A stretch of 64,000 nt of DNA from a virus (IMGVR_UViG_3300014489_000001:1-64000), one strand, 5' to 3'; positions 1,669-24,792 are shown, counted from the stretch's first letter. Numbers and translations: made by a program. The notes: generated by a model from the sequence alone, not told the origin.

Positions 1669-2451
1669 TTAAGCGCGCTGACGAACTTTCGCACGACGTA
1701 CTTCCCTCAGTTCTTTGATTCGTCTAAAGACCACAGATGAAAAATTGGCACCATCCATGGTCATTGCCTTATTGATGAACCGACCTTGTTCTTGGACCGG
1801 CAATCTTGCCAGAACATAGGCATTGCAGACGTTGATTTTGTCTAAGGTCACGTATCGTTGCGCGGGAGGCGATAGGTTTTCCAGGCCGAGACGTTCATTA
1901 ACCCATTCTTCATCGACATGCAGCGTGCTGCACAGATGCGACATAGACATCAAGTCATCGTATTGCAGAATCCGTTGCAAACCTTTGCTGAATTGTACCG
2001 GTCGAATATCCTTGACCGTTTTGCCCAGCATGATTTGAAAGTTCTGGACCTGGACATCAGACAGTTCGATCACGTTTGCCGGAATCGCCTGCATTCCGAT
2101 GTCGCTGGCGGCGGTATACCGTTGAAGACCTTTGATCAGGCCGTAGAGCAGATTACCAGTCGTGCGGTCTTTGACAGGACGCACGACAATCGGTACGATG
2201 ACACCGTATTCCTTGATGCTCTGAACAAGCGACAGATACTCTTTCTAGCTTCGGTCAACATCGCGAAGAGCAACAGGATTCTCTCTGATCTCTCTGAGAC
2301 TAATTGCTTTGAGTGAGTAGTTCATTTGGTTCCTTGGGTGGTTGTAGAAGATTAAGAATCTTCTTAGCAATTGCTTCCTCGTAACAGACGCAGACGATCT
2401 TGCCACCCACATTACGAACAACGTGGGTAGCGCCGAGTTGCTTGTACTCAA
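1669..2451 (-). pseudogene. ParB-like nuclease/partition-domain protein interrupted by an in-frame TAG (2245-2247); pseudogene or stop-codon read-through
   Basis: ORFs 2245..2451 and 1669..2184 are in the same frame separated by one TAG. Joined translation ...ALRDVDRS*KEYLSLVQSIKEYGVIVPIVVRPVKDRTTGNLLYGLIKGLQRYTAA aligns residue-for-residue with the paralog at 56389..57354 (...ALRGVNRQTEQYQGLLESVKSKGVINPIAVREVKDATTGEMFYGIIEGLHRYTAS). Confidence 0.6.
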
Positions 2452-2605
2452 GCATTTTCAAACCTCTTCAACAGTGCTGCAAGTATGATGTCTCTCCAGG
2501 CATCGTCCTTGCATAAACAGACCACTTCATCAGTGCCTACTTCTTTGATTGCCGGACGGGTGTGGTCTTTCCCCGGAACAGGCATTTCAAATTTAACAAA
2601 TTCCA

Positions 2606-3106
2606 TTACTTGTGCCTTTCTAAGAATTTTTGCATGGCCGGTGAAATTGGTTTTTCAATGCCAAACAGTCCGTAATCTCTACGAAACTGTGGCCAAAACC
2701 TGGCCAGCAATCCTTGGTTCCGCAGGAATGGATGAATCCAGACCCACGACAAGTTCAGCTGCGGAGTTGCTTCGTCTCTAAATCGAAAACAAACACAGCC
2801 GACAATCGCTCGTTCCTTGCCCCATGATCTGGAAATCAGAATCACATGATCACAGATATCCGTATCTTCATTGTAAGCATACTGTCGAAAATCATAACCC
2901 ATTTCCCGACGGAAATAACCAGCTAAGACATCGGCAGCCATACGAACCTTATGCGGTGATGCGTTTGTTACTTTGATTAATTCGTATACAATGCCGTGAA
3001 TTTCTGGCATATGAAACAAAGGCACACGAATCACCAGTTGTGATACTTCTTCTCCGCAAATCATTGTTTCCTCCAGAGCCATTTCCAAAGACGCACGAAC
3101 CACCAC
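2606..3106 (-). CDS. hypothetical protein (possible acetyltransferase-like fold, weak)
   Basis: 166-aa ORF; RNQGLLARF resembles a GNAT motif A but is not diagnostic. Confidence 0.35.
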   Translation of the reverse strand: MVVRASLEMALEETMICGEEVSQLVIRVPLFHMPEIHGIVYELIKVTNASPHKVRMAADVLAGYFRREMGYDFRQYAYNEDTDICDHVILISRSWGKERAIVGCVCFRFRDEATPQLNLSWVWIHPFLRNQGLLARFWPQFRRDYGLFGIEKPISPAMQKFLERHK

Positions 3107-3245
3107 TCACGACGCCCGAGCCAACACAACTCAGATTTGGTAAGTGGAATCTCGCCGCAAGGGTTAAGTAGGTCCGATACAATGAAATCAACGGTTTCTT
3201 CGTGGCTCATCGGACCTACGATTCTTTTATTGTCCACGGTGACTG

Positions 3246-3542
3246 TTATACATCGGCGAGTCGAAGAATCTTGCATACATCCTCCCATTGGACACCATCA
3301 TTCCACAGACAGATGAGTCTCTGTCCGGTTGGTAGTAGTGAATAAATGCAAGTTGCCACTTCTTGATATTCTTTCTGGTCAGGATAACATACCCGCATTG
3401 CGCCAAGTAAATCCCAGCCGGTTGCCTCATGGTCCAATACTCCGCATGGCTTACCGAATCGGTCCCTGGCCATGTGACCCTTGATCCAGTTACCGTTGTT
3501 CAAGAAGTCTTTGATTTTCATTGTGATCTCTTGGATTTCCAC
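3246..3542 (-). CDS. small conserved hypothetical protein, member of a 3-copy paralogous family (with 8987..9277 and 13131..13412)
   Basis: shared pattern W-x-KG-x-ARD-x-GKPC...EA-x-W-L-GA...CY...WNDG. Confidence 0.5.
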   Translation of the reverse strand: MEIQEITMKIKDFLNNGNWIKGHMARDRFGKPCGVLDHEATGWDLLGAMRVCYPDQKEYQEVATCIYSLLPTGQRLICLWNDGVQWEDVCKILRLADV

Positions 3543-3820
3543 TTGAAAGTTAGAACCGTGACACCTTGGTCAACCGCAAAAGTGACCAACAGGTCACCGT
3601 AATGGTCTCTGAGAAGCTTTTCAAGGTCTTCACGTTCTTCAAATCTCTCGCTGACGGTCACGACGTATCTGCCTCGATTCGCTGCTTCTCGCAATTGCTG
3701 ATTGCAAGCGGCTAAGAATGTATTGAATTCATCGAGACGCCTGCGGGCACGATCTTGTGCCATCAATTCTTCGGCCCTGCCTGAGATTTCAGACAGGAAT
3801 TCTTTCGTGAGTTTTTCCAT
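3518..3820 (-). CDS. hypothetical protein
   Basis: 100-aa ORF, charged/coiled-coil-like. Confidence 0.4.
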   Translation of the reverse strand: MEKLTKEFLSEISGRAEELMAQDRARRRLDEFNTFLAACNQQLREAANRGRYVVTVSERFEEREDLEKLLRDHYGDLLVTFAVDQGVTVLTFKWKSKRSQ

Positions 3821-4107
3821 TAAAAATGCACCTGGGTTACGAATGTTCGGAGCGGAAGGTCATTGTGATTTTTCTCATCATATATGTCCTTTCCGTATTG
3901 AACATATGTCTTGCGGTACGATTCGTGGTATCCTTCACCTGGGTGGTAAGGTTCAATCTTCGTCATGAGATAGCTGCCCTTCTTGAACCCACCGTGCCCA
4001 CTATCATCGCCGTCATAAGGAAAGCAGATGAAGTGGGCACCGATTGGCAAATCTTCAAGTCTTGACGGCCGTGAATAGCAGTGCTTGAGAAAGTCTTGAC
4101 CGTCCAT
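3820..4107 (-). CDS. hypothetical protein
   Basis: 95-aa ORF abutting the dut start. Confidence 0.4.
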   Translation of the reverse strand: MDGQDFLKHCYSRPSRLEDLPIGAHFICFPYDGDDSGHGGFKKGSYLMTKIEPYHPGEGYHESYRKTYVQYGKDIYDEKNHNDLPLRTFVTQVHF

Positions 4108-4784
4108 TATTGTGACCTCGGTGGTTCTGCTTCGTTGTTTTTGATGTTTAAGTGGTTTCCTACCGAAAGATTCTTGATTGCCTCGTGGCGGCGTTCCGCT
4201 TCCTTGTGGTCGTAGTATGCTTGCTTACCACGAGGATTTGCTGCTAACATGCCATCTTCGGCTCTGGCAATCAGTTCGTCGTTAACAGCTTGCAGCACGC
4301 GAGGCGAAGTCATTACAGAGTCTTGTTGCACTTCTTGTGCAGTCAAAGCCCTGTCGAATACCTTGACAACGTCAGTCGAACCAAGACATTTGTCGCCGCG
4401 GAAAGAATCGGACAAAGTTTCAGACCATTCCCAGGTCGGGTTCTCAACCTGGATAAATAGGACCTGGGCGACGGCTTTCTCCGGACTGTAGACGTAATCC
4501 GTGTCTGCAAAATTTCGGAGAATAACCATCCACTCACCACGATAATCAGAGTCTATGGTTCCGGCCATATGACTCAAGCCAGCGTTGCCGGTGCTGCTGC
4601 GGTCGTCGATCAGGGCAACATAACCGCTGGGAAATTCCGTTGCAAAGCCAAGAGGAATCTTGACTTGCTCCCCCGACTTCACTACACCAAGCATGGCCGG
4701 ATATAGATCGTATCCCGCCGAATGGTAAGCCTTTGTCGGCAGCTTAGCACCTTCACGCATCTTTTTGATTCGGACGTTGTTCAC
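4107..4784 (-). CDS. dut: dUTP diphosphatase (dUTPase) with C-terminal extension
   Basis: motifs AGYDL, RSS(T)G, GTIDSDYRGE typical of trimeric dUTPases. Confidence 0.85.
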   Translation of the reverse strand: MNNVRIKKMREGAKLPTKAYHSAGYDLYPAMLGVVKSGEQVKIPLGFATEFPSGYVALIDDRSSTGNAGLSHMAGTIDSDYRGEWMVILRNFADTDYVYSPEKAVAQVLFIQVENPTWEWSETLSDSFRGDKCLGSTDVVKVFDRALTAQEVQQDSVMTSPRVLQAVNDELIARAEDGMLAANPRGKQAYYDHKEAERRHEAIKNLSVGNHLNIKNNEAEPPRSQ

Positions 4785-4953
4785 GAATTATTTGAGCGGC
4801 TTCTTGAGCTAACTCAATTCCCATAGTTCTCGCGGCATTTAAAACGGCTGATTGTAACTGTGTCTCAGTAGGCGGTAACGATTTCAAATCTGCTTCCGAT
4901 CTTCCTACGTTACCGTAACGATGGAAGAAAATGATTGCTTGGTCGTATGTCAT
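4753..4953 (-). CDS. hypothetical protein
   Basis: 66-aa ORF, start overlaps upstream gene. Confidence 0.35.
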   Translation of the reverse strand: MTYDQAIIFFHRYGNVGRSEADLKSLPPTETQLQSAVLNAARTMGIELAQEAAQIIREQRPNQKDA

Positions 4954-5228
4954 TTGATCATCTCGATAAGTTTCTCACGACACGTTTGTTTTGGCTGAGT
5001 TTTAAGCAACCAATACTTGGCCGCTAGCAGCACTGCATCACGAAGTCTTGACTTTTCAGTAGCAAGGATTTGCAAATCGCCGTTTACAATGGCTACTCGG
5101 AAGCCGTCACAGTAAGAAGCAAATTGAACCTTGTAATCGGGATCATATTCCTTGACAGCTTGCACCAAAGTTTCAAGCACTCGGAAATCGTCATGTACAA
5201 GTGAAATTGTGCAGCTTGTAGGTTCCAT
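4950..5228 (-). CDS. hypothetical protein
   Basis: 92-aa ORF, ATGA-type overlap with neighbours. Confidence 0.4.
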   Translation of the reverse strand: MEPTSCTISLVHDDFRVLETLVQAVKEYDPDYKVQFASYCDGFRVAIVNGDLQILATEKSRLRDAVLLAAKYWLLKTQPKQTCREKLIEMIK

Positions 5229-5229
5229 G

Positions 5230-5478
5230 TTAAAGTCCCCCGTGAACAGCGTTATTCAGTGCATTCCATTTTGATTTGCAATCGGTGTATTTGAGCCACG
5301 ACTCTGCACACAATGACACAGCATCATCAAGTGCGATGCCGTGTGCCCCATGAACCACGTCGCCCGTATGTGCCCGAATGCCGCAGAAGAACATTTTGTC
5401 ATTCATGTGCATGACAACTTCTGCGTCATTCGGACACCGTTCGTGCATAGCTTCAACCAGAAGCTTTAGAATCTTCAT
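5230..5478 (-). CDS. hypothetical protein
   Basis: 82-aa ORF. Confidence 0.4.
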   Translation of the reverse strand: MKILKLLVEAMHERCPNDAEVVMHMNDKMFFCGIRAHTGDVVHGAHGIALDDAVSLCAESWLKYTDCKSKWNALNNAVHGGL

Positions 5479-5660
5479 GCACTTTTCCTCGTAGGTTTCT
5501 GCCCATCAACCAACAATTCCGTTCGAAAAATATCAAACGATTTTGGTGCATCATAGATGAGCTTAACCTTGCCCTTTCCGTAAGCCACAATCATTGTGAA
5601 TTCTTCTCCCATATGAAACACCTTTACCTTCTCCTGGTCCTTGCGGTCAATCACGAGCAT
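5475..5660 (-). CDS. hypothetical protein
   Basis: 61-aa ORF in operon context. Confidence 0.35.
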   Translation of the reverse strand: MLVIDRKDQEKVKVFHMGEEFTMIVAYGKGKVKLIYDAPKSFDIFRTELLVDGQKPTRKSA

Positions 5661-6132
5661 CGTGCACGTATCCTTTGTATTGGAAGCCAGCTAAACGAGG
5701 AATCGCTCCACCCCACAACTTGAGAAATTCCGAGTATAAGACCCATCCACCTTTGTAATTGGTCAGATACACGTAGTCGTTTTCCTTCTCGCGAATTACG
5801 GTCCAGTGGCCACCTAGTTCCCCGTCCTGGATTAACACAATCGCAGGTAGGTGAGCCATAATCTCCATCTCGCCGTGCATTTCCTCAATTTGTTTGTCAC
5901 CCCAACGCTTGCAGATTTCATGCACTTGTTCGGGGCTTGTTCCCAACCAGCCGAAAAGAATGTCTGGCGGGAATTCTTTCTCCACCGTCTTCATCAGAAT
6001 TTGATTAGACGGGATCAGGTCGTAATGAGCCAAAAACGTACACGCTGCGGCTTGGCCGCAATCGTAGTCGTTGTCATTGACAAATTCAAACATCACCCAA
6101 ATCCCTCTCGATCTTGTTGAGGTAAATTTCAA
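5647..6132 (-). CDS. papain-like cysteine peptidase, C39-like domain
   Basis: NDYDCGQAAACTFLAHY (catalytic Cys region) and GGHWTVI (His region) resemble peptidase C39; no cognate ABC transporter nearby. Confidence 0.45.
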   Translation of the reverse strand: MKFTSTRSRGIWVMFEFVNDNDYDCGQAAACTFLAHYDLIPSNQILMKTVEKEFPPDILFGWLGTSPEQVHEICKRWGDKQIEEMHGEMEIMAHLPAIVLIQDGELGGHWTVIREKENDYVYLTNYKGGWVLYSEFLKLWGGAIPRLAGFQYKGYVHDARD

Positions 6133-6298
6133 TGATTACAATGCCGATAACGCGACGTAGAAGACCGTCACTAATCTTAGGAATTAGAGTTTCCAGTTGT
6201 TCTACGTTCTCTTCAAAATACGCCCACTCACGATCATTCCTTGCCTGAACAGCCGAGGCTTTTTTGGAGAGTTCCATGGCCTTTTTATCCAATTTCAT
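6086..6298 (-). CDS. hypothetical protein
   Basis: 70-aa ORF. Confidence 0.35.
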   Translation of the reverse strand: MKLDKKAMELSKKASAVQARNDREWAYFEENVEQLETLIPKISDGLLRRVIGIVIIEIYLNKIERDLGDV

Positions 6299-6515
6299 CT
6301 AGTTGCCTCCCGAGCATATTGATGCTCAACTGTAAGACAACCAGCATTAACGCACAACGTAGTACCGAGCCATCCTTTGGCATCAATTCGATTAGTGCCT
6401 CTAAAGCATCCTTATGTTGTTCCATCTCACGCCACCACTGGTCAATGTGGGATTGGTGAACCGTCTCGTTACGTTTGAGAGATTGCCAATCTGACCTTTG
6501 CTCCGGTGTCATCAT
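6285..6515 (-). CDS. hypothetical protein
   Basis: 76-aa ORF. Confidence 0.4.
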   Translation of the reverse strand: MMTPEQRSDWQSLKRNETVHQSHIDQWWREMEQHKDALEALIELMPKDGSVLRCALMLVVLQLSINMLGRQLDEIG

Positions 6516-6775
6516 TCTATTTCGTCTATGGTCTTTCGTAGACGATTCAGCTTGACCTGAGCATATAAAATGGTCAGGTAGCTGTGCATGATCCCACTCG
6601 GAGCTATGCAGCCAAGGGTCTGCTCCAGACTTATGTAATTATCGTCCAGAATCTTCCACATCTGGTCCAGGTGTGCTTGTTGAACATTCGCAGACGCAAC
6701 CAATAATTCTTTCAATGCAATAACCTCCAAATACAAAACATGAAAATTGTAACCATGACGATTATGATTAACCAT
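6512..6775 (-). CDS. hypothetical protein
   Basis: 87-aa ORF. Confidence 0.4.
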   Translation of the reverse strand: MVNHNRHGYNFHVLYLEVIALKELLVASANVQQAHLDQMWKILDDNYISLEQTLGCIAPSGIMHSYLTILYAQVKLNRLRKTIDEIE

Positions 6776-6796
6776 TCCATAAAAAATGGTGGTATA

Positions 6797-7639
6797 TCAT
6801 TCGGGTTTCCCTTCATTGGGCCATACCTCTTTGCGAAACTGATTCCAGCCCCGAAAAGGACCAGAACGCACGCCCGTAACCGATGCTTGAGCCACATGTT
6901 CAAAAGGCGACCGATGACCAAGGTCGCCGGAACCTTTGATCATGTCTAGTGCCAATGCCAAATCCTTCTCAACTGATTTACGTTTCTCACCATGCTGCAC
7001 ATAACTGACTCGGGCACAACGAGCCACTGAGACCTTCTTTGCAATGTCCAATTGCAAAGCCTGGTCGTATGTTGCATAGATGTGTTCGTGGTCATCGTGT
7101 TCCATGTATGGCATATGCCAATCCTGGAACAGTACAGGCTTCGGTGTCGAATTAAGGATTGCTTCCTTCATCATGCCGGCGATCTGCTGGAAATGAATCT
7201 CAGCATCCGGGTGGCACCGCTGGGCAAAGAAGTTCTTCCAGTCTGTACTTGTCATGACGACCGTAATCCACATCCACGGTTCCGTCAACCGATTGCACAA
7301 CGACTTGTGAATTCCAAGTTCGTGAATCTCCTGGGCAATCTTGACCATATAGTCACGCCCTTTGAGCCACAAATGTTGAGCGCGGAGTATAGTGGCATTG
7401 TCCACTTCTTCTCCAGTTTGCATTCCCTTCTGGTTCTTACCCCATTTGATGGGAATGACCGGATCGTTCTCGATATTTGCACACATCGTCGGCCACGGGA
7501 TCGCACGGGAAGACCCTGCGTTTCGGGCACGGTCACGATGCGTCATAATCTCAGAATGGATGAACCTCGGGTATGTCGCCTCAAGTGTGATGAGTCGCGT
7601 TTCGCAAACCGAATCAGCGATTATTTTGCAACTGAACAT
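6797..7639 (-). CDS. divergent ThyX-like (flavin-dependent thymidylate synthase family) protein
   Basis: THRDRARNAGSSRA aligns with the ThyX RHRxxxxNExSxRY signature (H-R-x4-N-x2-S-x-R); otherwise divergent. Confidence 0.45.
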   Translation of the reverse strand: MFSCKIIADSVCETRLITLEATYPRFIHSEIMTHRDRARNAGSSRAIPWPTMCANIENDPVIPIKWGKNQKGMQTGEEVDNATILRAQHLWLKGRDYMVKIAQEIHELGIHKSLCNRLTEPWMWITVVMTSTDWKNFFAQRCHPDAEIHFQQIAGMMKEAILNSTPKPVLFQDWHMPYMEHDDHEHIYATYDQALQLDIAKKVSVARCARVSYVQHGEKRKSVEKDLALALDMIKGSGDLGHRSPFEHVAQASVTGVRSGPFRGWNQFRKEVWPNEGKPE

Positions 7640-8109
7640 TGTTCCTCCGGAAAGTTGAAAACAGCAAACTCACCAAAATTCCTTTTCGCAGAACGATCAT
7701 AGATTCGTGCTGCTTCCTCTTCGTTATCAAATACGCCAAGATGGACCTTTTCATCGTTACCAACTCTAATCTCGACTAACCATTTTTTCTTGATAGGGTG
7801 CCATCTGACTCCCTTATATTTTGATGTCTGGCCAGAACGCTTAGATCGGTTACAGTTCTGTTCTTGCTGCGTGGCAGGTCGAAGATTATCTCGTTGGTTG
7901 TTTTTCTTATTTTGATCTTTGTGGTCTATTGTCTGGTCGTCTTTTAAGACTAAGCCCATTCTTTTTGCAATTAACGAATGCATAGAGACATGCTGATTAC
8001 TAAGTTCAACGTAGCCATGATTAAGACACCAGAGAAATTGATCGAGGTAATCAAAATCCTCGTCACTGCAAAGAGCGTAACTGTAATCACTCAACTGAAT
8101 ACGCTTCAC
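7621..8109 (-). CDS. HNH homing endonuclease with AP2 DNA-binding domain
   Basis: HNH_3 N-terminal part plus YKGVRWHPIKKKWLVEIRVGNDEKVHLGVFDNEEEAARIYD (AP2-like). Confidence 0.7.
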   Translation of the reverse strand: MKRIQLSDYSYALCSDEDFDYLDQFLWCLNHGYVELSNQHVSMHSLIAKRMGLVLKDDQTIDHKDQNKKNNQRDNLRPATQQEQNCNRSKRSGQTSKYKGVRWHPIKKKWLVEIRVGNDEKVHLGVFDNEEEAARIYDRSAKRNFGEFAVFNFPEEQCSVAK

Positions 8110-8357
8110 GAATCCTCCCTTAAGGAATCATTAACAAGAGCCTTAGCTTCGTCATCGGTCCAGTCAGTATGAATCCAAATAGAGAATTCATCAACAAGAT
8201 AATTAACGCCATCCCCGGTTGGCGTCCACCGTTCTTCCGTGACTAACACGATCTCCCCATCTACGCGGTAGATGTGAAGATAGCTAAACATGAATTTCCC
8301 ATGAGAAGGTGATGGAGAACTTCCCATTCTTGTCGAGCGGCTCCGGGTTGACTTCAT
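8106..8357 (-). CDS. hypothetical protein
   Basis: 83-aa ORF. Confidence 0.35.
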   Translation of the reverse strand: MKSTRSRSTRMGSSPSPSHGKFMFSYLHIYRVDGEIVLVTEERWTPTGDGVNYLVDEFSIWIHTDWTDDEAKALVNDSLREDS

Positions 8358-8592
8358 AGAAAGCAGACACCAAAAATGAAATCATTTCATTGCTAGGCCG
8401 CGGATCGAAGAATCGCACCAACTCATTTTTGCCGCTCTTGGCGGTCTTGACGAGTTCATCTTCGATTGAACGTGCCCATCTCTCGCACTGTTCATCAAAT
8501 TCTCGTTGCACTTCGTCGATTTTGAGCTGAATTGCTTGCTCGGTGTAGTAGCCGAGTCTGGCGACAAGACTTACGGTGTTTTCTTCTTTCAT
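8284..8592 (-). CDS. hypothetical protein
   Basis: 102-aa ORF. Confidence 0.4.
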   Translation of the reverse strand: MKEENTVSLVARLGYYTEQAIQLKIDEVQREFDEQCERWARSIEDELVKTAKSGKNELVRFFDPRPSNEMISFLVSAFYEVNPEPLDKNGKFSITFSWEIHV

Positions 8593-8987
8593 AGTCCTAA
8601 CGCTATCCTTTCTTCGTGGGTGAGTTTCTTCATGGCGCCGCTGACGATTTCATCGCGAGCCTTGTCGCGTATCTCTTTCTCAAGACGTTTATTGTCACGC
8701 TCCTGGTGTTCTTCCCACCAAGTTGCGAGATTCCTTGCATCTTTGTTATGACCATCCCACAAGAGACGCGATTGTTGGTCTTCTGTGAGCGTCAGAACCA
8801 TGTCACACAACGTCCGCGTGTAACCATCAACACGGTCAGCATTACCGTAGTAGTTCTTGGAATCCGCGATGAGATCTTCCCTGACGTTGAGTTTGAGGGC
8901 TGTACGCAGATATACGAGAAGGCCAGCTACACGCCGACTTTCAACCTCTCGTGGACCTGCTTCCATCCCATGGCATTCACATGGCAT
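8589..8987 (-). CDS. hypothetical protein
   Basis: 132-aa ORF. Confidence 0.4.
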   Translation of the reverse strand: MPCECHGMEAGPREVESRRVAGLLVYLRTALKLNVREDLIADSKNYYGNADRVDGYTRTLCDMVLTLTEDQQSRLLWDGHNKDARNLATWWEEHQERDNKRLEKEIRDKARDEIVSGAMKKLTHEERIALGL

Positions 8988-10644: not shown

Positions 10645-11064
10645 TCATTTGAGTTTGTCCTTTAACCACCTAACACCTTTGTTGAGCTTGCCGGCTATTT
10701 CCTCCAAGGTTAGCTCTGGGTGTTCCTTGATTAGCCGAAGCAAGCACTGTTTGTATTCCGTCTTGCTCGTCTCAATGTGATGATGCGGAGCGAGAAGTTG
10801 AGATTCTACAATCTCTCGCTCAGTCATCGTATGAATCGTCGCTGGTATTTCAAGAATTCCTAATTCACGACACGCACGAACCCTGTGCCGCCCATTCAGC
10901 AACTTGTAATCGTTGCCGACCAGGGCGACATCTATTGGCATCAAGACGCCAAGTCGCTTGATGCTATCGCGAATAGCGAAGTAAGTAGCATCGTGCATAT
11001 CTTTCATGGATGTCGAAAGAATCTTGTTAACTGGTATTATGGTAATCGTTTCCTCCCTTGCCAA
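10645..11064 (-). CDS. ParB-like nuclease domain (ParBc/sulfiredoxin-like) protein
   Basis: GRHRVRACRELG matches the ParB N-terminal GxHR box; 139 aa, no HTH partition domain. Confidence 0.6.
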   Translation of the reverse strand: MAREETITIIPVNKILSTSMKDMHDATYFAIRDSIKRLGVLMPIDVALVGNDYKLLNGRHRVRACRELGILEIPATIHTMTEREIVESQLLAPHHHIETSKTEYKQCLLRLIKEHPELTLEEIAGKLNKGVRWLKDKLK

Positions 11065-11099
11065 AAATCCTCAGGTTCTGGTATGACCTTCACTGACCT

Positions 11100-14885: not shown

Positions 14886-14903
14886 CGTGGTTTTCCTGTA
14901 AGA

Positions 14904-15975: not shown

Positions 15976-15987
15976 CTGGAACAGTAA

Positions 15988-17435: not shown

Positions 17436-17842
17436 GAACCACTTGACCGTTCTTCGAGATTATCCTAACCTTCTTTCCTCGTGGAGCGGCAGTATGAAGG
17501 CTCATTTGACATGTCCTATGTAAAGGGCAAAAAGTTCGTCCAAAATCGCTTGGACTGCCAGGAAATCAGATTCATTGTGCGTGGGTGTGTATCCAGCAAG
17601 AGTGCATCGTTGATTCTCAGCTTGAAATCCAGCCACAGATATTTGTGCATCCGTTATGGCTTTCAAGCAAAGCAAGAATTCTTGATTCATGAGAAATACA
17701 CCACGATGAAAAAGAGATACAAAACAGCCACAAGGACTGCGACTACTCCGTATAACCAAATTGACTTATTCATAGATTCTCAAAAGCCAGAGAAGACACT
17801 GGAGGAACGCTGCGATTCCCCACAGTGTCAAATAGAGACGCC

Positions 17843-18106
17843 TCAAGGCATTTCCCTCGGTCCATTGATGGACAGAATCTCGTTGTGTTTGAGATATCGC
17901 TTGTGGCCGTTTGGATACACGATCCAGGCGTCTCCCTTGCTAATCGCAGGCTTCTCGTAAAAGTTGGGGATTTCAAGACGAGGTTGACTCTGGGCATCCG
18001 CTTTGAACAAGAAGACGCCAATGGCAAACAGGGCAACGGTAAAGATAATCGTTTTCATTGTCTGGTTCCTTTCAAAAGTGGGGAGGGTGACAATGGCGTT
18101 AGCCAC
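17843..18106 (-). CDS. small secreted protein
   Basis: signal-peptide-like MKTIIFTVALFAIGVFLFKADA. Confidence 0.4.
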   Translation of the reverse strand: MANAIVTLPTFERNQTMKTIIFTVALFAIGVFLFKADAQSQPRLEIPNFYEKPAISKGDAWIVYPNGHKRYLKHNEILSINGPREMP

Positions 18107-18139
18107 CCTCCCCGTCGGGTGCGGTCCGGGACCGCAGTA

Positions 18140-18673
18140 TTACCCTTCGCCTCCAAGCTCATTCCACCAGCCATAGCCGGTGAGATCGTAGCCGTCAAGA
18201 GGGTCGGGATAGCCGTCAAGATTACACGGCAACTGTTGTTGTTCTTGTAGCGGTTTCAAAGCCGCCTGGAGCGGAAGTCGTTGGTGTTCCATCGTGAGCC
18301 GTTGTTGCTCACGAACAGCCTGAAACGGCAACAGTTTCGGGGTGGCGTCTTCCAGAGCCGAATCAGAGAAGAAAGGTCCATCATGAGCGAGCCGCAAAAT
18401 CTCGCGGCAGGTCTCGATTCTCAATTCCACTGGTACGGTGGCACCGGTGCTGAACGATCCCTGAACATCCAGTGCCGTCTGGTGGATCGCGTCTGCGATT
18501 GGCTTAATCGCTTCGTGCAATTCCAGTCGCTCGTCATAGTTGAGTCCACGTCCTACGCCAAGCGCCACTGACACTTGACGCATGTGCTCTTTCCTCGTCA
18601 TTCTTACACTTCCTCGATTTTTAGAGAATGCGCTGGATTCAGACTGGGCGCGTGTACCTAACGTACACACCAC
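18140..18673 (-). CDS. hypothetical protein
   Basis: 177-aa ORF. Confidence 0.4.
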   Translation of the reverse strand: MVCTLGTRAQSESSAFSKNRGSVRMTRKEHMRQVSVALGVGRGLNYDERLELHEAIKPIADAIHQTALDVQGSFSTGATVPVELRIETCREILRLAHDGPFFSDSALEDATPKLLPFQAVREQQRLTMEHQRLPLQAALKPLQEQQQLPCNLDGYPDPLDGYDLTGYGWWNELGGEG

Positions 18674-18714
18674 TCACATGTTACATATCACACTCTCCCT
18701 TCTCTGAATAAGAG

Positions 18715-19932
18715 TTACTTTTTGTGTATCTCAAACGGGAAGATCGGAACCGTCGTTCCACCTTGCATAATCGTTTGAGGCACAACACCCGTCCAGCGGG
18801 ACCGCCAAACGGTTTCCATCTCAAGACCCTTCAACGCCAAGATCAAGTCCTTGGTCTTCTCAAGCTGTGCATAGCGATACGCTTCGGCATCAGCTTCGGT
18901 CCGAATTGCCAGTGACTTGGCTTTCGCAACCTCGATCTCGACGTTTACCGCGGCGAGTCTTGCTTTGGCTTCACCTTCGGCTCGTGCAATCGAAGCACGA
19001 GCTTACCCCTCAGCTGCCATGATGAGGGTTTTGTTGTCAATCTCTTGGTTCTGCAACTTCGTTTGTTGCTCGACTTTTTCCTTCTCTTGCATTGCCAATG
19101 CCGCAATCTTCAACTGTTGAGCTTGGACGGCATCGTCAATACTCTTCTGAATCGCAGGATTCCGAGGATGGAACCCGCCGATCATACCGAGTTTGGTGAT
19201 CGCGATTCCACGTCGTTTGAAGAATGGGACGACATCTTCTCGAACTGCTTCCACCAGTTCGTGCTGTGTTCCACGTAGCTTCTCGAATGTGTATTTCGAT
19301 GCAAAATCCGAAGTAACAGCCTGGACACGAATCCTAACTTCACTGTCCATGATATGTCCGAGTGTATCACCTTTGTAATAATACAAAAAGTGCTCAGCAC
19401 CTTCGGGACTCTTGTCGTCGGATTCGGGGATGTAGGCGGTACAGTTGAAATTGCAACCGAAGGCCATTCCATCTTTGCTCTGGGCAGAGATGGATTCGTC
19501 GGTGGTGTTGGTTCCTGTATGATGCTCACTTGTCCATTCCTTTCCGATAGTGGAGCGATCAACCTTGACGACACGTTTCTCGTCCAGGTAGTTGCCCCAC
19601 ACGTAGAGCCAGCCAGTCTGGTTCCACTTTTTGGGAATCTGAATTCGTTTGACGCCAATCTTGCCCTCGCCCAACATCTTGATTGAATCGACGTGCTTGA
19701 TGCCGCCGGTGCCATCGTCGAGCGGAAGAAGGAAGCCGGTTTCGTTGTTCTCGATTACCTCGAACTTAGGTGTGTTGTAAGGTGGTACGAAAAAGAACCA
19801 CACAATCAGAGCAACGAACACGATGATTCCAGCAGATACTGCCACCTTCAATTGAAGTTTTTGAGTCTTTGTCATCAGTTTCCTCAAGAGTAAAGAATCC
19901 AACATCGGGGAGGGACCGAAGTCCCTCCCCAC
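18715..19932 (-). pseudogene. SPFH/band-7 (prohibitin/HflK-like) membrane protein interrupted by an in-frame TAA at 19003-19005; pseudogene or read-through
   Basis: N-terminal TM plus SPFH core (…AITKLGMIGGF…IQKSIDDAVQAQQ). After TAA the same frame continues ARASIARAEGEAKARLAAVNVEIEVAKAKSLAIRTEADAEAYRYAQLEKTKDLILALKGLEMETVWRSRWTGVVPQTIMQGGTTVPIFPFEIHKK*, the typical SPFH coiled-coil C-terminus, ending at TAA 18715-18717. Confidence 0.6.
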
Positions 19933-19933
19933 G
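19908..19933. terminator. GC-rich perfect hairpin (GGGGAGGGAC-cgaa-GTCCCTCCCC), first of three hairpins in the 19.9-20.07 kb intergenic region
   Basis: 10-bp perfect stem with 4-nt loop; followed by CTTAGGGAG...CTCCCTAAG (19934-19965) and GCCGGGGC-catt-GCCCCGGC (20049-20068). Confidence 0.4.
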
Positions 19934-20273
19934 ACCTTAGGGAGCCGATTGCACTCCCTCCCTAAGACTCCATTACAGAGTCGAAATCATAAAGCACCCC
20001 TTTGTACGCGAGTACATAAGAAGCCAATCAACCTACTCACCACAACAAGCCGGGGCCATTGCCCCGGCTAAAAGTATATGCGGAAGACTGCGGTTAGACT
20101 CGCTTCATGATTATATCCTCCATACATTGTTTTGGTTTTGCGGACACATGACACACGTCACATGAATCCGAGGCGCGCCCGGCGGAGGTCAAGAAAGAAG
20201 GTTATACGTAGCAACAATTGATGCAATTGTCATTTGATTGTCCTTTCTGAAAATAGGGTGTAACTGGAACACG

Positions 20274-20510
20274 CTAAAGCGGCATCGCGAAGTGCTTTAC
20301 GGGTCCTTCGCGGAAGGACTCAATCCGAAAAGAATCATCGTCGCGAGGCTCAGCGTTGCCTGGTAGTCCCCCACGTTTGGAGACTTGGGCGTTTTCTCTA
20401 CTGCACGTTGGGCAAATCCGATTAAACGGACTTGTCGGTTGAAATGACTTCCCGCATTTGTTGCAAGGCTTCTTCATCAATTCCTCCGGAAGTAACGTGA
20501 TTGGCGACAA
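20274..20510 (-). CDS. small Cys-rich (zinc-ribbon-like) protein
   Basis: CNKCGK...CPTC pairs. Confidence 0.4.
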   Translation of the reverse strand: MSPITLLPEELMKKPCNKCGKSFQPTSPFNRICPTCSRENAQVSKRGGLPGNAEPRDDDSFRIESFREGPVKHFAMPL

Positions 20511-20817
20511 ATCGAAGAATCAACGGATGAGTCTTCAACCATTCGCCGGCATTGGAAATCTTTGTCAAGCTAATCTGACGAGCGTTGTTCAAATCAGCCT
20601 GAAATTCAGCGTAACCATCCTCCAGGTCCTTGACTTGAATATCGTTGTCAAGAGAGTGAGCAAATTGAAAGAATGGTTCAAGCTGCTGAGCCGTGTACTT
20701 GTTTACGATGCCAGTGACGAAATTGACAAACGACCCGTGAAGAAACTGGTCAATTTTCGTCAGAGTGTCTTGACCCGTCGTAATTGCATTATAGAGTTCT
20801 GATGGATTCATGACCAT
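20422..20817 (-). CDS. hypothetical protein
   Basis: 131-aa ORF. Confidence 0.4.
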   Translation of the reverse strand: MVMNPSELYNAITTGQDTLTKIDQFLHGSFVNFVTGIVNKYTAQQLEPFFQFAHSLDNDIQVKDLEDGYAEFQADLNNARQISLTKISNAGEWLKTHPLILRFVANHVTSGGIDEEALQQMREVISTDKSV

Positions 20818-20988
20818 CCTTTACAACGACATCGATCGCGATTCCTGGCGTACCGATATCTTTTTGAATAAGTTCCTCTTTCCGTTGAAGAACCAAGTCT
20901 AATCCAGGACGTTGGTCGTACACATGAACCACGCAATCGTGGACTGAATGTTCCATTGTAATTCCGCCATCTTCCAAAATTGTCACTA

Positions 20989-21357
20989 TCATGCGATGCC
21001 CGCCCACAAGAGATAGGGATTGTGTTCCCAGGTGTACATTTTACCACAATCTTCCGTGAGAGTTGTTCCGTCCCAACGGACCAATTTGTAATCCCAAGGT
21101 GTCCTGGCTTTGTTAGGATCAGGTTTCACTACCAAGAGATTATTACTGGTCGGTATGCAAAACGGATACCAGTAAATCTTTTGTTTGGGTGTCGCAGATA
21201 GTTCCAATATGTCAGCTTCGCAAAGCACACTCTTGAGCCGATCATATTCCTCCTGGTAGACCGGATTCCCCTTGAGTTGTTGCAGGTACTGGACAGTGTT
21301 CATTGTATCCCTCAGGCAGCCATTGGAAAATCTCAGGCAGCACGCCAGGGTGCCCAT
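20989..21357 (-). CDS. hypothetical protein
   Basis: 122-aa ORF. Confidence 0.35.
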   Translation of the reverse strand: MGTLACCLRFSNGCLRDTMNTVQYLQQLKGNPVYQEEYDRLKSVLCEADILELSATPKQKIYWYPFCIPTSNNLLVVKPDPNKARTPWDYKLVRWDGTTLTEDCGKMYTWEHNPYLLWAGIA

Positions 21358-21628
21358 CCCTGTGTAGACGAATCAGTTTCCTGATTCTTGCCAACAAGAT
21401 CATCATCTTGTCTGGGTTGTACTTCATGGTGATAAGGTCTTCATCGACCTCGACTATGTTGCCGGAAGCAATCCTCTCACCACCTTTGACCACGTAATAT
21501 TTTGGGCCTACGAATTCCATGGTTGCACCTTCCTGCAACAATGGCATAGGATCGAAGACACGATACATAGTCAGTCTCCCGTCTTTGAAGTGCCCAGAAT
21601 CGTCGCCAGCGAAGATGCCGTGAATCAT
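21242..21628 (-). CDS. hypothetical protein (start trimmed to MIHGIFAGDD with GGAGGAAAA SD)
   Basis: track ORF 21242..21832 overlaps the DHH gene; internal ATG at 21628 gives a 4-nt overlap. Confidence 0.4.
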   Translation of the reverse strand: MIHGIFAGDDSGHFKDGRLTMYRVFDPMPLLQEGATMEFVGPKYYVVKGGERIASGNIVEVDEDLITMKYNPDKMMILLARIRKLIRLHRDGHPGVLPEIFQWLPEGYNEHCPVPATTQGESGLPGGI

Positions 21629-22488
21629 TTTTCCTCCACGTTTGGAGAATCTCCATGTCGTGGTCCAGTTATTGCGTCCAAGAATTCTTGGTGCCACGGA
21701 ACAGAGAACGAAGCAGCATGTGCATGCCCTCCTCCTCCATATAATTGTGCAATTGCAGAGACATCGATTCCCGTATCGTTGCTTGAACGAAGAGAATACA
21801 CGAATCGTTTTATACGATCTTGGTTGAACCATACTATGGCAAATGGACGACCAAGCCCTAACTCATGACCGATTTCACTTGCGAGAACTGTTGAGTTGAC
21901 ACTCATCACCTTGTGCCCATGGAATTCGATTTCGCGGGCCTGGGACACAGCCTGGCGAATGATCTTTTCTTGGTAGCGGATAATCGGTCGGCCTTCCTTG
22001 ACACACGCATCACGACCCATCAGCACAAACTTCTCGCAGTTGGCCAGTGAGAAAGCGTAGCTTTGGATGCAGGCGTCAACTTCTTTGGATTCGGGGAGTT
22101 CCCATTTCCAAAGATCACGATCTCGGATGTAGGGGAGAATCCACAACATCTCGCGATCAGGTTTGAGATACTTCCAAGCGAGTGTCGCGCCAGATTCATC
22201 GTTATCGTCGATATACGAAAACGGATAATCAGGCACGAAGCCTTCAAGTTGTTCGCGAGTGGATTTGTGGTGGTCGATGACCAGAAGGGATTTCGGATGT
22301 ACGCTTTTGAGGATCGCAATGTCTGGACAGTAGTCCACACAAACGATTGAGTCCTCATCCGAAATTTGAGGGAGTTGTTCCTGATACCGGACAGGTATCA
22401 GGTCGGCACCTTTGAAATATGATTCTGCGATGTACGCTGCGAAGATTCCGTCGGCGCAATTTGCGTGGAAGAGCAACTTAGTTGACAT
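21625..22488 (-). CDS. DHH-family phosphoesterase (NrnA/RecJ-like) with DHHA1 domain
   Basis: HANCADG (motif I), VIDHH (motif III), GGGGHAHA (DHHA1 GGGH). Confidence 0.7.
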   Translation of the reverse strand: MSTKLLFHANCADGIFAAYIAESYFKGADLIPVRYQEQLPQISDEDSIVCVDYCPDIAILKSVHPKSLLVIDHHKSTREQLEGFVPDYPFSYIDDNDESGATLAWKYLKPDREMLWILPYIRDRDLWKWELPESKEVDACIQSYAFSLANCEKFVLMGRDACVKEGRPIIRYQEKIIRQAVSQAREIEFHGHKVMSVNSTVLASEIGHELGLGRPFAIVWFNQDRIKRFVYSLRSSNDTGIDVSAIAQLYGGGGHAHAASFSVPWHQEFLDAITGPRHGDSPNVEEK

Positions 22489-23044
22489 GATTAAGTTCCT
22501 TCAAGTCGTTAAGGACTGCAAATTCACCAAAAAGTTCAGTCACAGCATTGTTGTATGCAATTGCTGCTTCTAACTCAGTGTTGAAAGTTCCAATCGTAAT
22601 CTGAACGCCATTTTCGTAGGTGTAGGCTTGATAACCTTTACCCATTGGTCGAATGCCACGAAATCGTGACTGGTTGTTTCTTTGTAATCGATTCCTTCGA
22701 TTTTGAGAAACTGTAGCCATACGTAGATTATCTTTTTGACAATCTGTTCTATCTCGATTCTTATGGTCTACTTGTTTACCATCTTCATAACGACCATCAC
22801 GTTTCATTATCTCTATGTGTAAATAGAGATCAACTCCATTTTCTTTTCGACGTGCATAATGCCCTGGAGTATACGTCCAAATCCAATGATTAAAGAAATC
22901 GAAATCATTGTCATCAATTTTGATTTCGACAAAATAATCCGTTATCAACGTCTTCATATTTCGTCGAACGGTTCTTCTGTATAACCCAAAGTGAGTAGAT
23001 GGTCGCAAAATTCGTACATCAGAGCAGTAGTTTTCTTGAACCAC
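22478..23044 (-). CDS. HNH homing endonuclease with AP2 domain (second copy)
   Basis: DHKNRDRTDCQKDNLR (HNH) plus C-terminal AP2-like GVQITIGTFNTELEAAIAYNNAV. Confidence 0.65.
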   Translation of the reverse strand: MVQENYCSDVRILRPSTHFGLYRRTVRRNMKTLITDYFVEIKIDDNDFDFFNHWIWTYTPGHYARRKENGVDLYLHIEIMKRDGRYEDGKQVDHKNRDRTDCQKDNLRMATVSQNRRNRLQRNNQSRFRGIRPMGKGYQAYTYENGVQITIGTFNTELEAAIAYNNAVTELFGEFAVLNDLKELNHVN

Positions 23045-23367
23045 TCTGACCTACGGTAGTGAAACGATTCCACTTGAGCATTGTTGAAATTTGGCCACGG
23101 AGCATTCCATCCTTCTGGTTTGCCAGGCCATACTTCTAGTGGACCGATTTTGGATTCCATCCAGGTTTCCATTGCAGCGTGCATATCGACGACCGGGCCA
23201 ATAAAGGCCCGGTCGTTAATGAGATAGATCATATCTCTCCCTTAAACGTGGTCGGGGGACGTTTCAATCCCCCGCAAAGGCTAATCAGCTTTGCTACCAG
23301 CAAACATCGTTGGGTGAATTACTTCCAATTAGATTGCCAAGCTCTAAGCCACCCGGACACCTGAAAA

Positions 23368-24792
23368 TCATTGGGACTCGCTGGTGCGAATGAAGTCGAT
23401 GATCGCTTCGGACCACCCGCTGATATGGGTGAAGTTGCCGTAGCCGATTCCATTCTTGTCAGCACTGATGTTGATCAGGTAGTTCTCGTCACCGAATGCT
23501 TCCGCGGCGTTGGGATCGCACTTTGCATTCATGCCGGTTGCACAATCCTGCTCATCCGTAATGACGATGACGCGAGCCGCTTCGCCGTGTTCCTGTTCGC
23601 TGACGTAATCCATGCACTGAGTCAAGAAGATGCCACCGTGGCCGATTTCAGATTCCATCTTCATCTGGGCGAAAATCTCACCCAGAGCGAAACCACGACG
23701 CGCCGGAACCTGCTTCGTGGCATGTTTTCGGCGTTCATCAGACCCAGCAGTCGCATAGATGACCGGGTCTTCGGCAATCTCACGAATGAGAATCGCCAAA
23801 GCACCAGCAGCGTCCAATCTGGTCAGGTCACTCTTCTGCGAAATCTGCTTGCCGTGCATGGAACCAGACACGTCTATGATTAGGACGGTCTTACCAGGCA
23901 GTTTTTCGACCTTGGCAACGCATCGAAGCATCATATCTTCGATCATCGGTTCCCATCGCGGGCAAGCACGAGCCGCCGAGATGAATCGAAAAGGCAGAAC
24001 GCGGTCGAGAGGAACGTGCTTCGCGTACTCACGAACCAGGCCGGCGTCCACGCCAGACTGTTCCATGTTGCGAAGATTCCGAATGAAGGCTAAAGCGTAG
24101 AGCTTCTCTTCACGCATCAACCGCTCGAACGTCTCTTTCTTGTCAGCACCCGCGGAAAGTTCCGTTTCCCAAGTGTCGGGCGTCTGGAGCGTGCCGGCGA
24201 CCAATTTGCCGTACAACGATTCCGGATGGCGAAGAAGAATTTTCTCGTGGCCGTCCTTGTATTTCCGAGTGTATTTCTTGGAACGGCCGTTGCCCTTCGG
24301 TCCCGGATTCGCGTGACACAGGAACAACACGTCTTTGAGCTTGATCGCGTTGTTCTGGTTGTCGTACTTCGCGAGACTGTACTCGTTGAAGTTTCCGAAA
24401 GCCGCAGCGAGACCCTTCTTGACCTGGGCCGCAATCGGACACTTGCCGTCTTTCCAGTAGATCGAGAGGAACTAGGCCAACTCGTCGGGCCGCTGAATGA
24501 TTTCAGGTAGGAGTTTGCTCAGTTGTCCCTTGTGAACCGGCAGGCGAGCCATCTCGCGTGCAATCAGAAGCGGAACGTGCCGGAGTTTCTGGACAGTACG
24601 AGCTTGAATTGCGATTGCCGAGACCCGATCTGCTGGGACTTTGGCAATCAGAGAGCCGATGCGGGCGGCGATCTCTTCACCGGATTCGTAGAAATTGTCT
24701 TCCCAAAGCATACACGCCATTACGGAACGCCGAAGCTGTTCCTCAGTGTTGACGCTCACCGCACGAGCGCCGCCATGTGTTTTCACCGGCAT
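23368..24792 (-). pseudogene. rsr: Ro60/TROVE-domain protein with C-terminal vWA domain (Rsr-like), interrupted by an in-frame TAG at 24469-24471; pseudogene or read-through
   Basis: N-terminal segment contains the TROVE hallmark MLWEDNFYE. After TAG the frame continues FLSIYWKDGKCPIAAQVKKGLAAAFGNFNEYSLAKYDNQNNAIKLKDVLFLCHANPGP into ORF 23368..24330, whose C-terminal half has a vWA-type MIDAS (LIIDVSGSM). Confidence 0.7.

What the first reader, a model, noticed from the sequence alone, without database searches (positions are those of the whole stretch)
1669..24792. Three conserved genes each contain one in-frame stop codon (TAG in ParB-like 2245-2247, TAA in SPFH 19003-19005, TAG in Ro60 24469-24471) with homology continuing in frame
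In all three cases the downstream sequence stays in frame and continues the conserved domain. The ParB case aligns residue by residue with the intact paralog at 56389..57354. No suppressor tRNA (CTA, TTA or TCA anticodon) is present, so simple code reassignment is unlikely; other large ORFs (PolA, RNR, primase, helicase) are intact. Options: (i) assembly or sequencing errors; (ii) genuine pseudogenisation; (iii) programmed read-through. The phage encodes tRNA-Gln(CUG), tRNA-Gln(UUG), tRNA-Lys(CUU) and tRNA-Lys(UUU), which are the first-position near-cognate decoders of UAG/UAA via a G36.U1 wobble; glutamine insertion at UAG/UAA is a known natural read-through mechanism.
Basis: partly seen in the sequence, partly recalled or inferred. 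Interest (0 to 1): 0.6.

Follow-up and report, generated by a model that had tools for sequence, protein, structure and literature searches.

The report
Three real nonsense mutations in phage genes
An uncultivated large phage carries one premature stop codon in each of three accessory genes; the stops are real in the DNA but absent from its closest relatives, so they look like recent knock-out mutations and not a special decoding trick.

Summary
On the minus strand, a ParB-like gene (2325..1669) has TAG at 2245-2247. An SPFH gene (19875..18715) has TAA at 19003-19005. Homology continues in frame across each stop.

The stops are not assembly errors. The same codons occur in 100%-identical contigs built by three pipelines from at least two sequencing runs.

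They are not code reassignment. TAG and TAA terminate many conserved genes, treating them as sense adds only 1.5-3 points of coding density, and the 73.6 kb I could read holds no suppressor tRNA.

They are not conserved. Every relative found has an intact gene with a sense codon at the site: Ro60 has Glu GAG, one G>T step from TAG; SPFH has Val or Lys; ParB-like has Asp, Ser or Thr. About 80 other genes shared with relatives show no disruption. No shared stop context or downstream RNA structure was found.

Best reading: three recent, lineage-specific nonsense mutations that truncate accessory genes (confidence about 0.7). Relative-rate tests show no extra decay, so the mutations are young, or the genes are still read at some level. 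A suppressor tRNA in the unread ~50 kb of the genome, or in the host, remains possible.

The parts
1669..2325 (-). ParB-like gene, a short paralog of 218 codons. Start ATG at 2323-2325, preceded by AAGGAA; final TAA at 1669-1671.
   Evidence: Translation. Pfam ParB_N, residues 5-98, E 2e-12. 46% identical to the paralog at 56389-57354. The ortholog in relatives L026/L027 is intact at 223 aa and ends at the same point, so the short length is native.
2245..2247 (-). In-frame TAG at codon 27 of the ParB-like gene. Context: AGC TAG AAA.
   Evidence: The column holds Asp in the ortholog, Thr in the paralog and Ser/Thr/Asp/Gly in other homologs. The same TAG is present in contigs from ERZ27249415, SRR35930976 and ERZ28661085.
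18715..19875 (-). SPFH/Band 7 membrane-protein gene, 386 codons if read through. Start ATG at 19873-19875; final stop at 18715-18717.
   Evidence: Translation. Pfam Band_7, 25.6 bits against a cut-off of 23.6. Intact 384-aa orthologs P0009 and P0010 at 82% and 79% identity.
19003..19005 (-). In-frame TAA in the SPFH gene. It leaves a 290-aa product that lacks the conserved C-terminal 95 residues. Context: GGG TAA GCT.
   Evidence: The column holds Val (GTT/GTC) in the two closest relatives and Lys in most others. The truncated 290-aa product P0011 is on record from JGI, Logan and ENA assemblies, 4 contigs.
23368..24792 (-). Ro60/TROVE (Rsr-like) gene, 474 codons if read through. Start ATG at 24790-24792; final TGA at 23368-23370.
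   Evidence: Translation. Pfam TROVE, 43.1 bits against a cut-off of 23. Intact orthologs: L024 479 aa (82.6% identity), L023 458 aa, L001 483 aa, RsoM2USA_57 488 aa.
24472..24474 (-). In-frame TAG at codon 107 of the Ro60 gene. Context: GCC TAG TTC.
   Evidence: Orthologs have Glu here: GAG in L024 and L023, GAA in L001 and RsoM2USA. The stop is therefore one G>T change away. The exact 106-aa fragment that ends at this stop is on record in 5 contigs.
56389..57354 (-). Intact ParB paralog (321 aa) used as the comparison.
   Evidence: Pfam ParB_N plus HTH_ParB.
28958..29705 (-). tRNA array: Asp GUC, Gln UUG, Gln CUG, Lys UUU, Lys CUU, Ile UAU, Ile GAU. No suppressor anticodon.
   Evidence: ARAGORN and Rfam.

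Best explanation
The three stops are genuine, recent nonsense mutations specific to this phage lineage. They sit in three unrelated accessory genes: a short ParB paralog, an SPFH membrane protein and a Ro60/TROVE RNA-binding protein.

In the standard code that the phage otherwise uses, each stop ends translation early.
- ParB-like: a 26-residue peptide, with possible weak re-initiation at GTG 2184.
- SPFH: a 290-residue product without its conserved C-terminal 95 residues.
- Ro60: a 106-residue fragment without the TROVE and vWA core.

The genes are therefore inactivated or crippled. They may be young pseudogenes, or knock-outs that were selected, for example because the products became dispensable or harmful on the current host.

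What is shown: the stops are real, they are not conserved, the code is standard, and no further decay is visible.

What is inferred: loss of function, and why three such mutations became fixed (drift or bottleneck, relaxed selection, or selection for loss).
For: 1. The stops are real. The same stops occur in 100%-identical contigs from several assemblies and at least two runs.

2. They are lineage-specific. All relatives have intact genes with sense codons at the sites.
- Ro60: Glu GAG/GAA in L024, L023, L001 and RsoM2USA.
- SPFH: Val or Lys in 11 homologs.
- ParB-like: Asp in the 223-aa ortholog.

3. The code is standard.
- Among ORFs, TGA ends 67, TAA 38 and TAG 22.
- TAG ends ORFs that match relatives' genes along almost their whole length, such as window 8284-8592 and 31476-31928.
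- The coding-density proxy is 0.871 in code 11, 0.886 with TAG as sense and 0.902 with TAA as sense. That is well below the >10% gain used to call recoded phages on contigs of 5-100 kb (10.1101/2021.08.26.457843).

4. There is no suppressor tRNA among the 14 tRNAs in 73.6 kb.

5. There is no common read-through signal. The +4 bases are A, G and T. Downstream folds have z-scores of -1.2, -1.1 and +0.2.

6. Two TAG and one TAA is what random nonsense mutation predicts from the codon usage: TAG 0.42, TAA 0.36, TGA 0.22.

7. Relatives show no internal stops of their own in the genes compared, so there is no clade-wide tolerance of stops.
Against: 1. Three clean nonsense hits with no frameshift and no second lesion, in genes that are among the best conserved between this phage and its nearest relative (about 83% amino-acid identity), is a somewhat high load. 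About 80 other shared genes are undisrupted.

2. Relative-rate tests show no excess amino-acid change on the window branch.
- Ro60: 3 v 3 before the stop and 6 v 7 after it.
- SPFH: 15 v 18 before and 9 v 7 after, against P0009.
This fits a very recent origin, but it fits continued selection on a read-through product equally well.

3. About 50 kb of the genome of at least 123 kb could not be read, so a suppressor tRNA there is not excluded.

4. The assemblies are 100% identical. They may come from one site or one culture, so they show that the base calls are correct but not that the stops are stable over evolutionary time.
Confidence: 0.7

Rival explanations
1. The stops are suppressed by a dedicated suppressor tRNA that I could not see. 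One ochre-type tRNA (anticodon UUA) would read both UAA and UAG. It could be encoded in the unread ~50 kb of the phage genome or by the host. The genes would then still make full-length protein. This could be an early stage of stop-codon recoding.
For: - All three stops are UAA or UAG, the pair that one ochre suppressor can read.
- No post-stop decay and no rate acceleration.
- The genome is at least 123 kb, of which only 73.6 kb was readable.
- The phage invests heavily in tRNAs, 14 in two clusters.
- Borges et al. propose that in-frame stops accumulate after a suppressor is acquired, and they detected suppressor tRNAs in only 35-40% of recoded phages.
Against: - No suppressor in either tRNA cluster.
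- TAA and TAG end about half of the ORFs, so efficient ochre suppression would extend many proteins.
- Only 3 of roughly 100 genes carry such a stop, and none of the relatives carries one.
- The absence of TGA among three stops is expected by chance (P about 0.48).
Confidence: 0.12
2. Programmed or tolerated read-through by near-cognate phage tRNAs (Gln CUG/UUG, possibly Lys or Glu). A fraction of ribosomes would make full-length protein.
For: - The phage encodes both Gln isoacceptors and both Lys isoacceptors, and Glu UUC just beyond the window.
- Gln, Tyr and Lys are the residues inserted at UAA and UAG during natural read-through in yeast (PMC4150775).
- No decay after the stops.
Against: - The stops are not conserved in any ortholog. 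Conservation is the hallmark of programmed read-through.
- The native residues at the sites are Glu, Val/Lys and Asp/Ser/Thr, not Gln.
- The contexts differ, and one is TAG-T. By my recollection of E. coli work, U at +4 favours termination.
- No significant downstream structure. The 8-bp hairpin after the SPFH TAA follows from the codon pattern of the repeated Ala-Arg-Ala peptide (GCN-CGN-GC is its own reverse-complement pattern).
- The Lys tRNAs would need a U.U mismatch, not a wobble.
- By general knowledge, near-cognate read-through in bacteria is typically well under 1-2%. That is little protein for three genes.
Confidence: 0.1
3. Sequencing or assembly artefact: the true genome has sense codons at these positions.
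For: Single-base errors can create stops. The window itself is a single metagenomic contig.
Against: - The identical stops appear in contigs from three assembly pipelines (Logan, JGI, ENA/MEGAHIT-style k141) and from at least two runs, SRR6505094 and SRR35930976.
- One of these contigs comes from a structural variant that lacks about 290 bp nearby.
- The SPFH TAA is at least two substitutions away from the Val codon of the nearest relatives.
Confidence: 0.03

Closest known systems
Nonsense (amber/ochre) mutations and young pseudogenes in phage and bacterial genomes
   Same: One premature UAG or UAA sits inside an otherwise intact, conserved reading frame. Orthologs carry a sense codon. Full-length product would need suppression.
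   Different: These were found fixed in a wild, uncultivated phage population, not selected in the laboratory. They lie in accessory genes, not essential ones. Three occur together with no frameshifts.
Stop-codon-recoded phages (code 15 TAG>Gln, code 4 TGA>Trp; crAss-like, Lak and others; 10.1101/2021.08.26.457843, PMC9523058)
   Same: In-frame TAG codons inside phage genes whose homology continues. The phage carries many tRNAs.
   Different: There are only three sites, involving two different stop codons. TAG and TAA are used as ordinary terminators. The coding-density gain is 1.5-3 points, against a threshold of more than 10% for contigs of this size. No suppressor tRNA was seen. The genes hit are accessory genes lying in the region with the DNA-metabolism genes, not genes of the structural and lysis regions where that paper finds recoding concentrated. 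Relatives lack the stops.
Programmed stop-codon read-through (for example the Qbeta A1 protein at UGA, and viral and eukaryotic leaky stops decoded by near-cognate Gln/Tyr/Lys tRNAs; PMC4150775)
   Same: A stop is followed by an in-frame coding sequence, and near-cognate tRNA-Gln is available.
   Different: Programmed sites are conserved across relatives, sit at the end of a complete protein and add an extension, and often have a defined context or structure. Here the stops interrupt conserved domains, are not conserved and share no context.
Bacterial Rsr (Ro60)-YrlA modules
   Same: The disrupted Ro60 gene is a TROVE protein preceded by YrlA-like RNA matches. Relatives have the same arrangement.
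   Different: In this phage the protein gene is interrupted at codon 107, and the YrlA matches score lower and are only partial.

Membership tests
Stop-codon-recoded (alternative genetic code) phage | Coding density rises by more than 10% (contigs of 5-100 kb) when the stop is read as sense (criterion from 10.1101/2021.08.26.457843) | tested here: not met
   ORF-based proxy: 0.871 in the standard code, 0.886 with TAG as sense, 0.902 with TAA as sense.
Stop-codon-recoded (alternative genetic code) phage | The reassigned codon is frequent in frame and is not used as a terminator of conserved genes | tested here: not met
   TAG ends 22 ORFs and TAA 38. TAG ends ORFs that match relatives' genes along almost their whole length (window 8284-8592 and 31476-31928). 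Only 3 internal stops were found among the roughly 80 genes compared with relatives.
Stop-codon-recoded (alternative genetic code) phage | A phage-encoded suppressor tRNA (anticodon CUA, UUA or UCA) | tested here: inconclusive
   None among 14 tRNAs in the 73.6 kb that could be read.
Programmed stop-codon read-through | The stop codon is conserved at the same site in orthologs | tested here: not met
   Orthologs have Glu (Ro60), Val or Lys (SPFH) and Asp/Ser/Thr (ParB-like).
Programmed stop-codon read-through | A leaky context or a stimulatory downstream RNA structure | tested here: not met
   The +4 bases are A, G and T. Fold z-scores are -1.16, -1.11 and +0.17.
Programmed stop-codon read-through | The read-through protein is detectable | not testable with these tools
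   Needs proteomics or ribosome profiling of infected cells.
Nonsense-mutated gene / young pseudogene | The stop interrupts a frame that is homologous on both sides to intact orthologs | tested here: met
   Single alignments span the stops: Ro60 82.6% over 472 aa, SPFH 82.9% over 380 aa, ParB-like 40.5% over 227 aa. The Pfam ParB_N match covers residues 5-98, across codon 27.
Nonsense-mutated gene / young pseudogene | The stop is present in the DNA and is not an error | tested here: met
   Identical stops in contigs from several assemblies and runs.
Nonsense-mutated gene / young pseudogene | Relaxed constraint: extra substitutions or further lesions on the affected branch | tested here: not met
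   Relative-rate counts are balanced: Ro60 3 v 3 and 6 v 7; SPFH 15 v 18 and 9 v 7. No second lesion is visible. This fits a very recent origin, but it does not positively show decay.
Nonsense-mutated gene / young pseudogene | Loss of the full-length product | not testable with these tools
   Needs protein-level data.
ParB_N / SPFH (Band 7) / TROVE domain families (identity of the three genes) | Pfam score above the curated gathering cut-off | tested here: met
   ParB_N 47.4 bits against 26.3, Band_7 25.6 against 23.6, TROVE 43.1 against 23.

The most novel reading that the evidence does not exclude
This phage lineage may tolerate UAG and UAA inside genes because it, or its host, supplies suppression. 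The source could be an unseen ochre-type suppressor tRNA in the unread part of the genome, or strong near-cognate decoding by its own Gln, Lys or Glu tRNAs. The three genes would then still be expressed. That would catch the earliest step of stop-codon recoding: a phage that still uses the standard code but has begun to accumulate in-frame stops in dispensable genes.
Probability: 0.1. Interest if true: 0.7.

Novelty: already known. Interest (0 to 1): 0.25.

Why it matters
As it stands, the result is mainly a caution for annotation. Automatic gene callers split these genes into fragments (a 106-aa plus a 320-aa 'Ro60', a 290-aa 'SPFH', a 171-aa 'ParB'), and those fragments are now in public protein databases as if they were genes.

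Biologically it shows a wild large phage losing, or switching off, three conserved accessory genes at about the same time. That hints at relaxed or reversed selection on them in its current host.

If the genes were shown to be translated through the stops, the phage would be a natural intermediate on the path to stop-codon recoding, and that would be of real interest.

Tried and rejected
- Megablast of 24 kb against GenBank phages found no match.
- The search for related loci with the ParB-like and SPFH proteins in IMG/VR found no close relatives.
- Exact-pattern scans for the Ro60 site, with NNN at the stop codon in the two larger scans, found nothing in IMG/VR, JGI metagenome contigs or GTDB genomes. 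I therefore found no population variants with a sense codon and no host clue.
- Literature searches for the sample accessions returned nothing relevant, so the habitat and the independence of the samples remain unknown.
- A first all-frame tblastn screen for stops was swamped by non-coding frames. I replaced it with screens that used called genes.
- Apparent extra 'stops' turned out to be natural gene ends: window 14055 (sigma-like gene), 26430 (70-aa gene) and 10645 (139-aa ParB_N gene).
- The perfect 8-bp hairpin directly after the SPFH TAA was considered as a read-through stimulator and rejected. It follows from the repeated Ala-Arg-Ala codons (GCN-CGN-GC is its own reverse-complement pattern).
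- Pyrrolysine, selenocysteine, introns, inteins and translational bypass were rejected. The alignments show a one-codon substitution with no insertion, and TAA is among the stops.
- Walking into the remaining ~50 kb of the 123-kb contig was not possible, because the look-up tool only accepts window proteins or proteins returned by the search for homologous proteins.


Full report
**What is there.** Almost all genes in window 1-57.4 kb lie on the minus strand. Translating that strand confirms one in-frame stop in each of three genes.
- The ParB-like frame 2325..1669 reads ...RDVDRS*KEYLSLVQSIKEYGV..., with TAG at 2245-2247.
- The SPFH frame reads ...LIMAAEG*ARASIARAEGEAK..., with TAA at 19003-19005, and continues for 95 codons to 18715-18717.
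- The Ro60/TROVE frame 24792..23368 reads ...QRPDELA*FLSIYWKDGK..., with TAG at 24472-24474.

Pfam places all three above the curated cut-offs: ParB_N 47.4 bits over residues 5-98, so across the stop at codon 27; Band_7 25.6 bits; TROVE 43.1 bits. The ParB-like frame aligns at 46% identity with the intact paralog at 56389-57354. Rfam adds a tRNA-His at 63644-63716.

**Are the stops real?** The window is the first 64 kb of Logan contig SRR6505094_2717 (67.5 kb). An exact look-up of the 106-aa Ro60 fragment that ends at the TAG returns five contigs. They come from Logan SRR6505094 and SRR35930976, JGI 3300050191 and ENA ERZ27249415, plus a similar place that was not shown. All are 99.9-100% identical to the window.
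- The truncated 290-aa SPFH product is on record in four contigs from JGI, Logan and ENA.
- The ParB TAG with its context is present in contigs from ERZ27249415, SRR35930976 and ERZ28661085.
- JGI contigs match the window at 100% across about 33 kb of the window.
- An ENA contig of 123,274 bp shares the window's coordinates, so the genome is at least 123 kb.

Different assemblers and at least two runs therefore agree, and a sequencing or assembly error is excluded. The copies are identical, however, so they may come from one site or one culture. They say nothing about how long the stops have persisted.

**Is the code unusual?** It is not.
- Among mechanically chosen ORFs, TGA ends 67, TAA 38 and TAG 22.
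- TAG ends ORFs that match relatives' genes along almost their whole length, such as window 8284-8592 and 31476-31928.
- An ORF-based coding-density proxy is 0.871 in the standard code, 0.886 with TAG read as sense and 0.902 with TAA read as sense. This is far from the >10% gain that Borges et al. used to call recoded phages on contigs of 5-100 kb.
- The two tRNA clusters (28958-29705, and 63644 onwards into the flank read as L016) hold Ile x2, Lys x2, Gln x2, Asp, His, Thr, Glu, Pro, Ala and Asn, with no suppressor.

**What do relatives have?** Several related uncultivated phages were retrieved.
- L024/L026/L027: JGI 3300052990 and SRR29604914.
- L023: SRR29078297, a 92.9-kb contig.
- L001/L039: IMG/VR 3300022173_000112, 111.8 kb.
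- Ralstonia phage RsoM2USA, for Ro60 only.

Results for the three genes:
- Ro60 is intact in all of them (479, 458, 483 and 488 aa). The stop column holds Glu: GAG in L024 and L023, GAA in L001 and RsoM2USA. The window's TAG is therefore a single G>T change.
- SPFH is intact in all 11 aligned homologs. The column holds Val (GTT/GTC) in the two closest, at 82% and 79% identity, and Lys in most others.
- The ParB-like ortholog in L026/L027 is an intact 223-aa protein that ends at the same place (...RRAKSSKRS*). The short length is therefore native. The stop column holds Asp there and Ser/Thr/Asp/Gly in other homologs.
- This gene evolves fast. It is 40% identical between the two phages, while its flanking genes are 73-83% identical. 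The window copy is no further from the paralog outgroup than the relative's copy is (46% v 42%).

Screening the called genes of the relatives against the window, across 1.5-60.6 kb and roughly 80 shared genes, shows no other internal stop and no split alignment. The other flagged 'stops' are natural gene ends. The relatives themselves show no internal stops in the genes compared. The three stops are therefore lineage-specific and not a habit of the clade.

**Age and selection.** I counted residues unique to the window branch against residues unique to the closest relative, using outgroups.
- Ro60: 3 v 3 before the stop and 6 v 7 after it. With single outgroups the counts are 4 v 4 before, and 12 v 13 or 16 v 16 after.
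- SPFH: 15 v 18 before and 9 v 7 after, against P0009. One comparison, against P0010 with P0012 as outgroup, is uneven (12 v 2 after the stop), but the others are balanced.

So there is no sign of accelerated decay and no second lesion. Either the mutations are very young relative to the ~17% protein divergence from the nearest relative, or the genes are still under selection. These data cannot separate the two.

**Read-through signals.**
- The contexts are AGC-TAG-AAA, GGG-TAA-GCT and GCC-TAG-TTC, so there is no shared +4 base.
- The 100 nt downstream of each stop fold no better than shuffles: z = -1.16, -1.11 and +0.17.
- The neat 8-bp hairpin just after the SPFH TAA follows from the Ala-Arg-Ala...Ala-Arg-Ala codons, whose GCN-CGN-GC pattern is its own reverse-complement pattern.
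- Gln, Tyr and Lys insertion at UAA and UAG is documented in yeast (PMC4150775). That shows the mechanism is possible, not that it operates here.
- From the codon usage, random single-base changes give TAG 42%, TAA 36% and TGA 22% of nonsense outcomes. Two TAG plus one TAA, with no TGA, is unremarkable (P about 0.48).

**Conclusion.** The best-supported reading is three recent nonsense mutations that truncate three accessory genes of an uncultivated large phage (confidence about 0.7). Why three became fixed together is an inference. Candidates are drift in a bottlenecked or enriched population, relaxed selection, or selection for loss on the present host.

The main alternative I cannot exclude is suppression by a tRNA in the unread ~50 kb of the genome or in the host (about 0.12). 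Artefact is very unlikely (about 0.03).

In kind this is an already known phenomenon, so interest is low to moderate. It would rise sharply only if protein-level data showed translation through the stops.

Noticed in passing
window 25052-25121 and 25320-25386 (minus strand); L023 5959-6079 and 6096-6207; L001 1390-1483: Y RNA-like (Rfam YrlA, RF02553) matches below the gathering score lie in the ORF-poor 1.6 kb just upstream of the Ro60 gene (32.8 and 27.7 bits; E 9e-5 and 2.7e-3; partial model). Relatives with an intact Ro60 have full-length matches in the same position (E 4e-7, 2e-6 and 5.5e-7). This looks like a phage-borne Rsr-YrlA module. The window's copies score lower.
   Followed up: partly
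window 63644-63716 (+) and beyond the window end (L016 10803-11112): Rfam finds a tRNA-His (GUG) at 54.3 bits that ARAGORN missed. The second tRNA cluster continues past the window end with Glu UUC, Pro UGG, Ala UGC and Asn GUU. That makes 14 tRNAs in 73.6 kb.
   Followed up: yes
window 29309-29445 (minus strand): The tRNA-Gln (CUG) and tRNA-Lys (UUU) genes overlap by 7 nt: the sequence GGGACUG is both the 3' acceptor strand of one and the 5' acceptor strand of the next. Several neighbouring tRNAs abut with no spacer. Rfam aligns the Gln (CUG) gene only over model positions 7-64.
   Followed up: no
window 56389-57354, 50176-50988, 10645-11064, 1669-2325 (all minus strand): The window holds four genes with a ParB_N domain: 321 aa and 270 aa with the HTH domain, a 139-aa protein with only the N-terminal domain, and the 218-codon copy with the stop. 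That is an unusually large ParB complement for one phage.
   Followed up: partly
window 25864-26154, compared with L014 (ENA ERZ27249415): One assembly of the same phage lacks about 290 bp of the non-coding region upstream of Ro60. It is otherwise 99.9% identical and keeps the Ro60 TAG. This is the only structural variant seen.
   Followed up: no
window 50990-52123 (minus strand): A 377-aa ORF with no Pfam match lies between the SNF2-like helicase gene and the 270-aa ParB gene. The relative L039 has no counterpart, and the two flanking genes are adjacent there. It is probably a lineage-specific insertion.
   Followed up: no
window 26221-26280 (minus strand): A weak tRNA-like match (20.7 bits, E 0.37) with a good T-arm and acceptor stem but no D or anticodon arms, in the same ORF-poor region. 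It may be a tRNA remnant or part of another Y-like RNA.
   Followed up: no
public protein databases (P0001, P0011 and the 106-aa and 320-aa Ro60 pieces): Gene callers have deposited the fragments of the three interrupted genes as separate proteins. The 26-codon ParB N-terminus is not called at all.
   Followed up: yes
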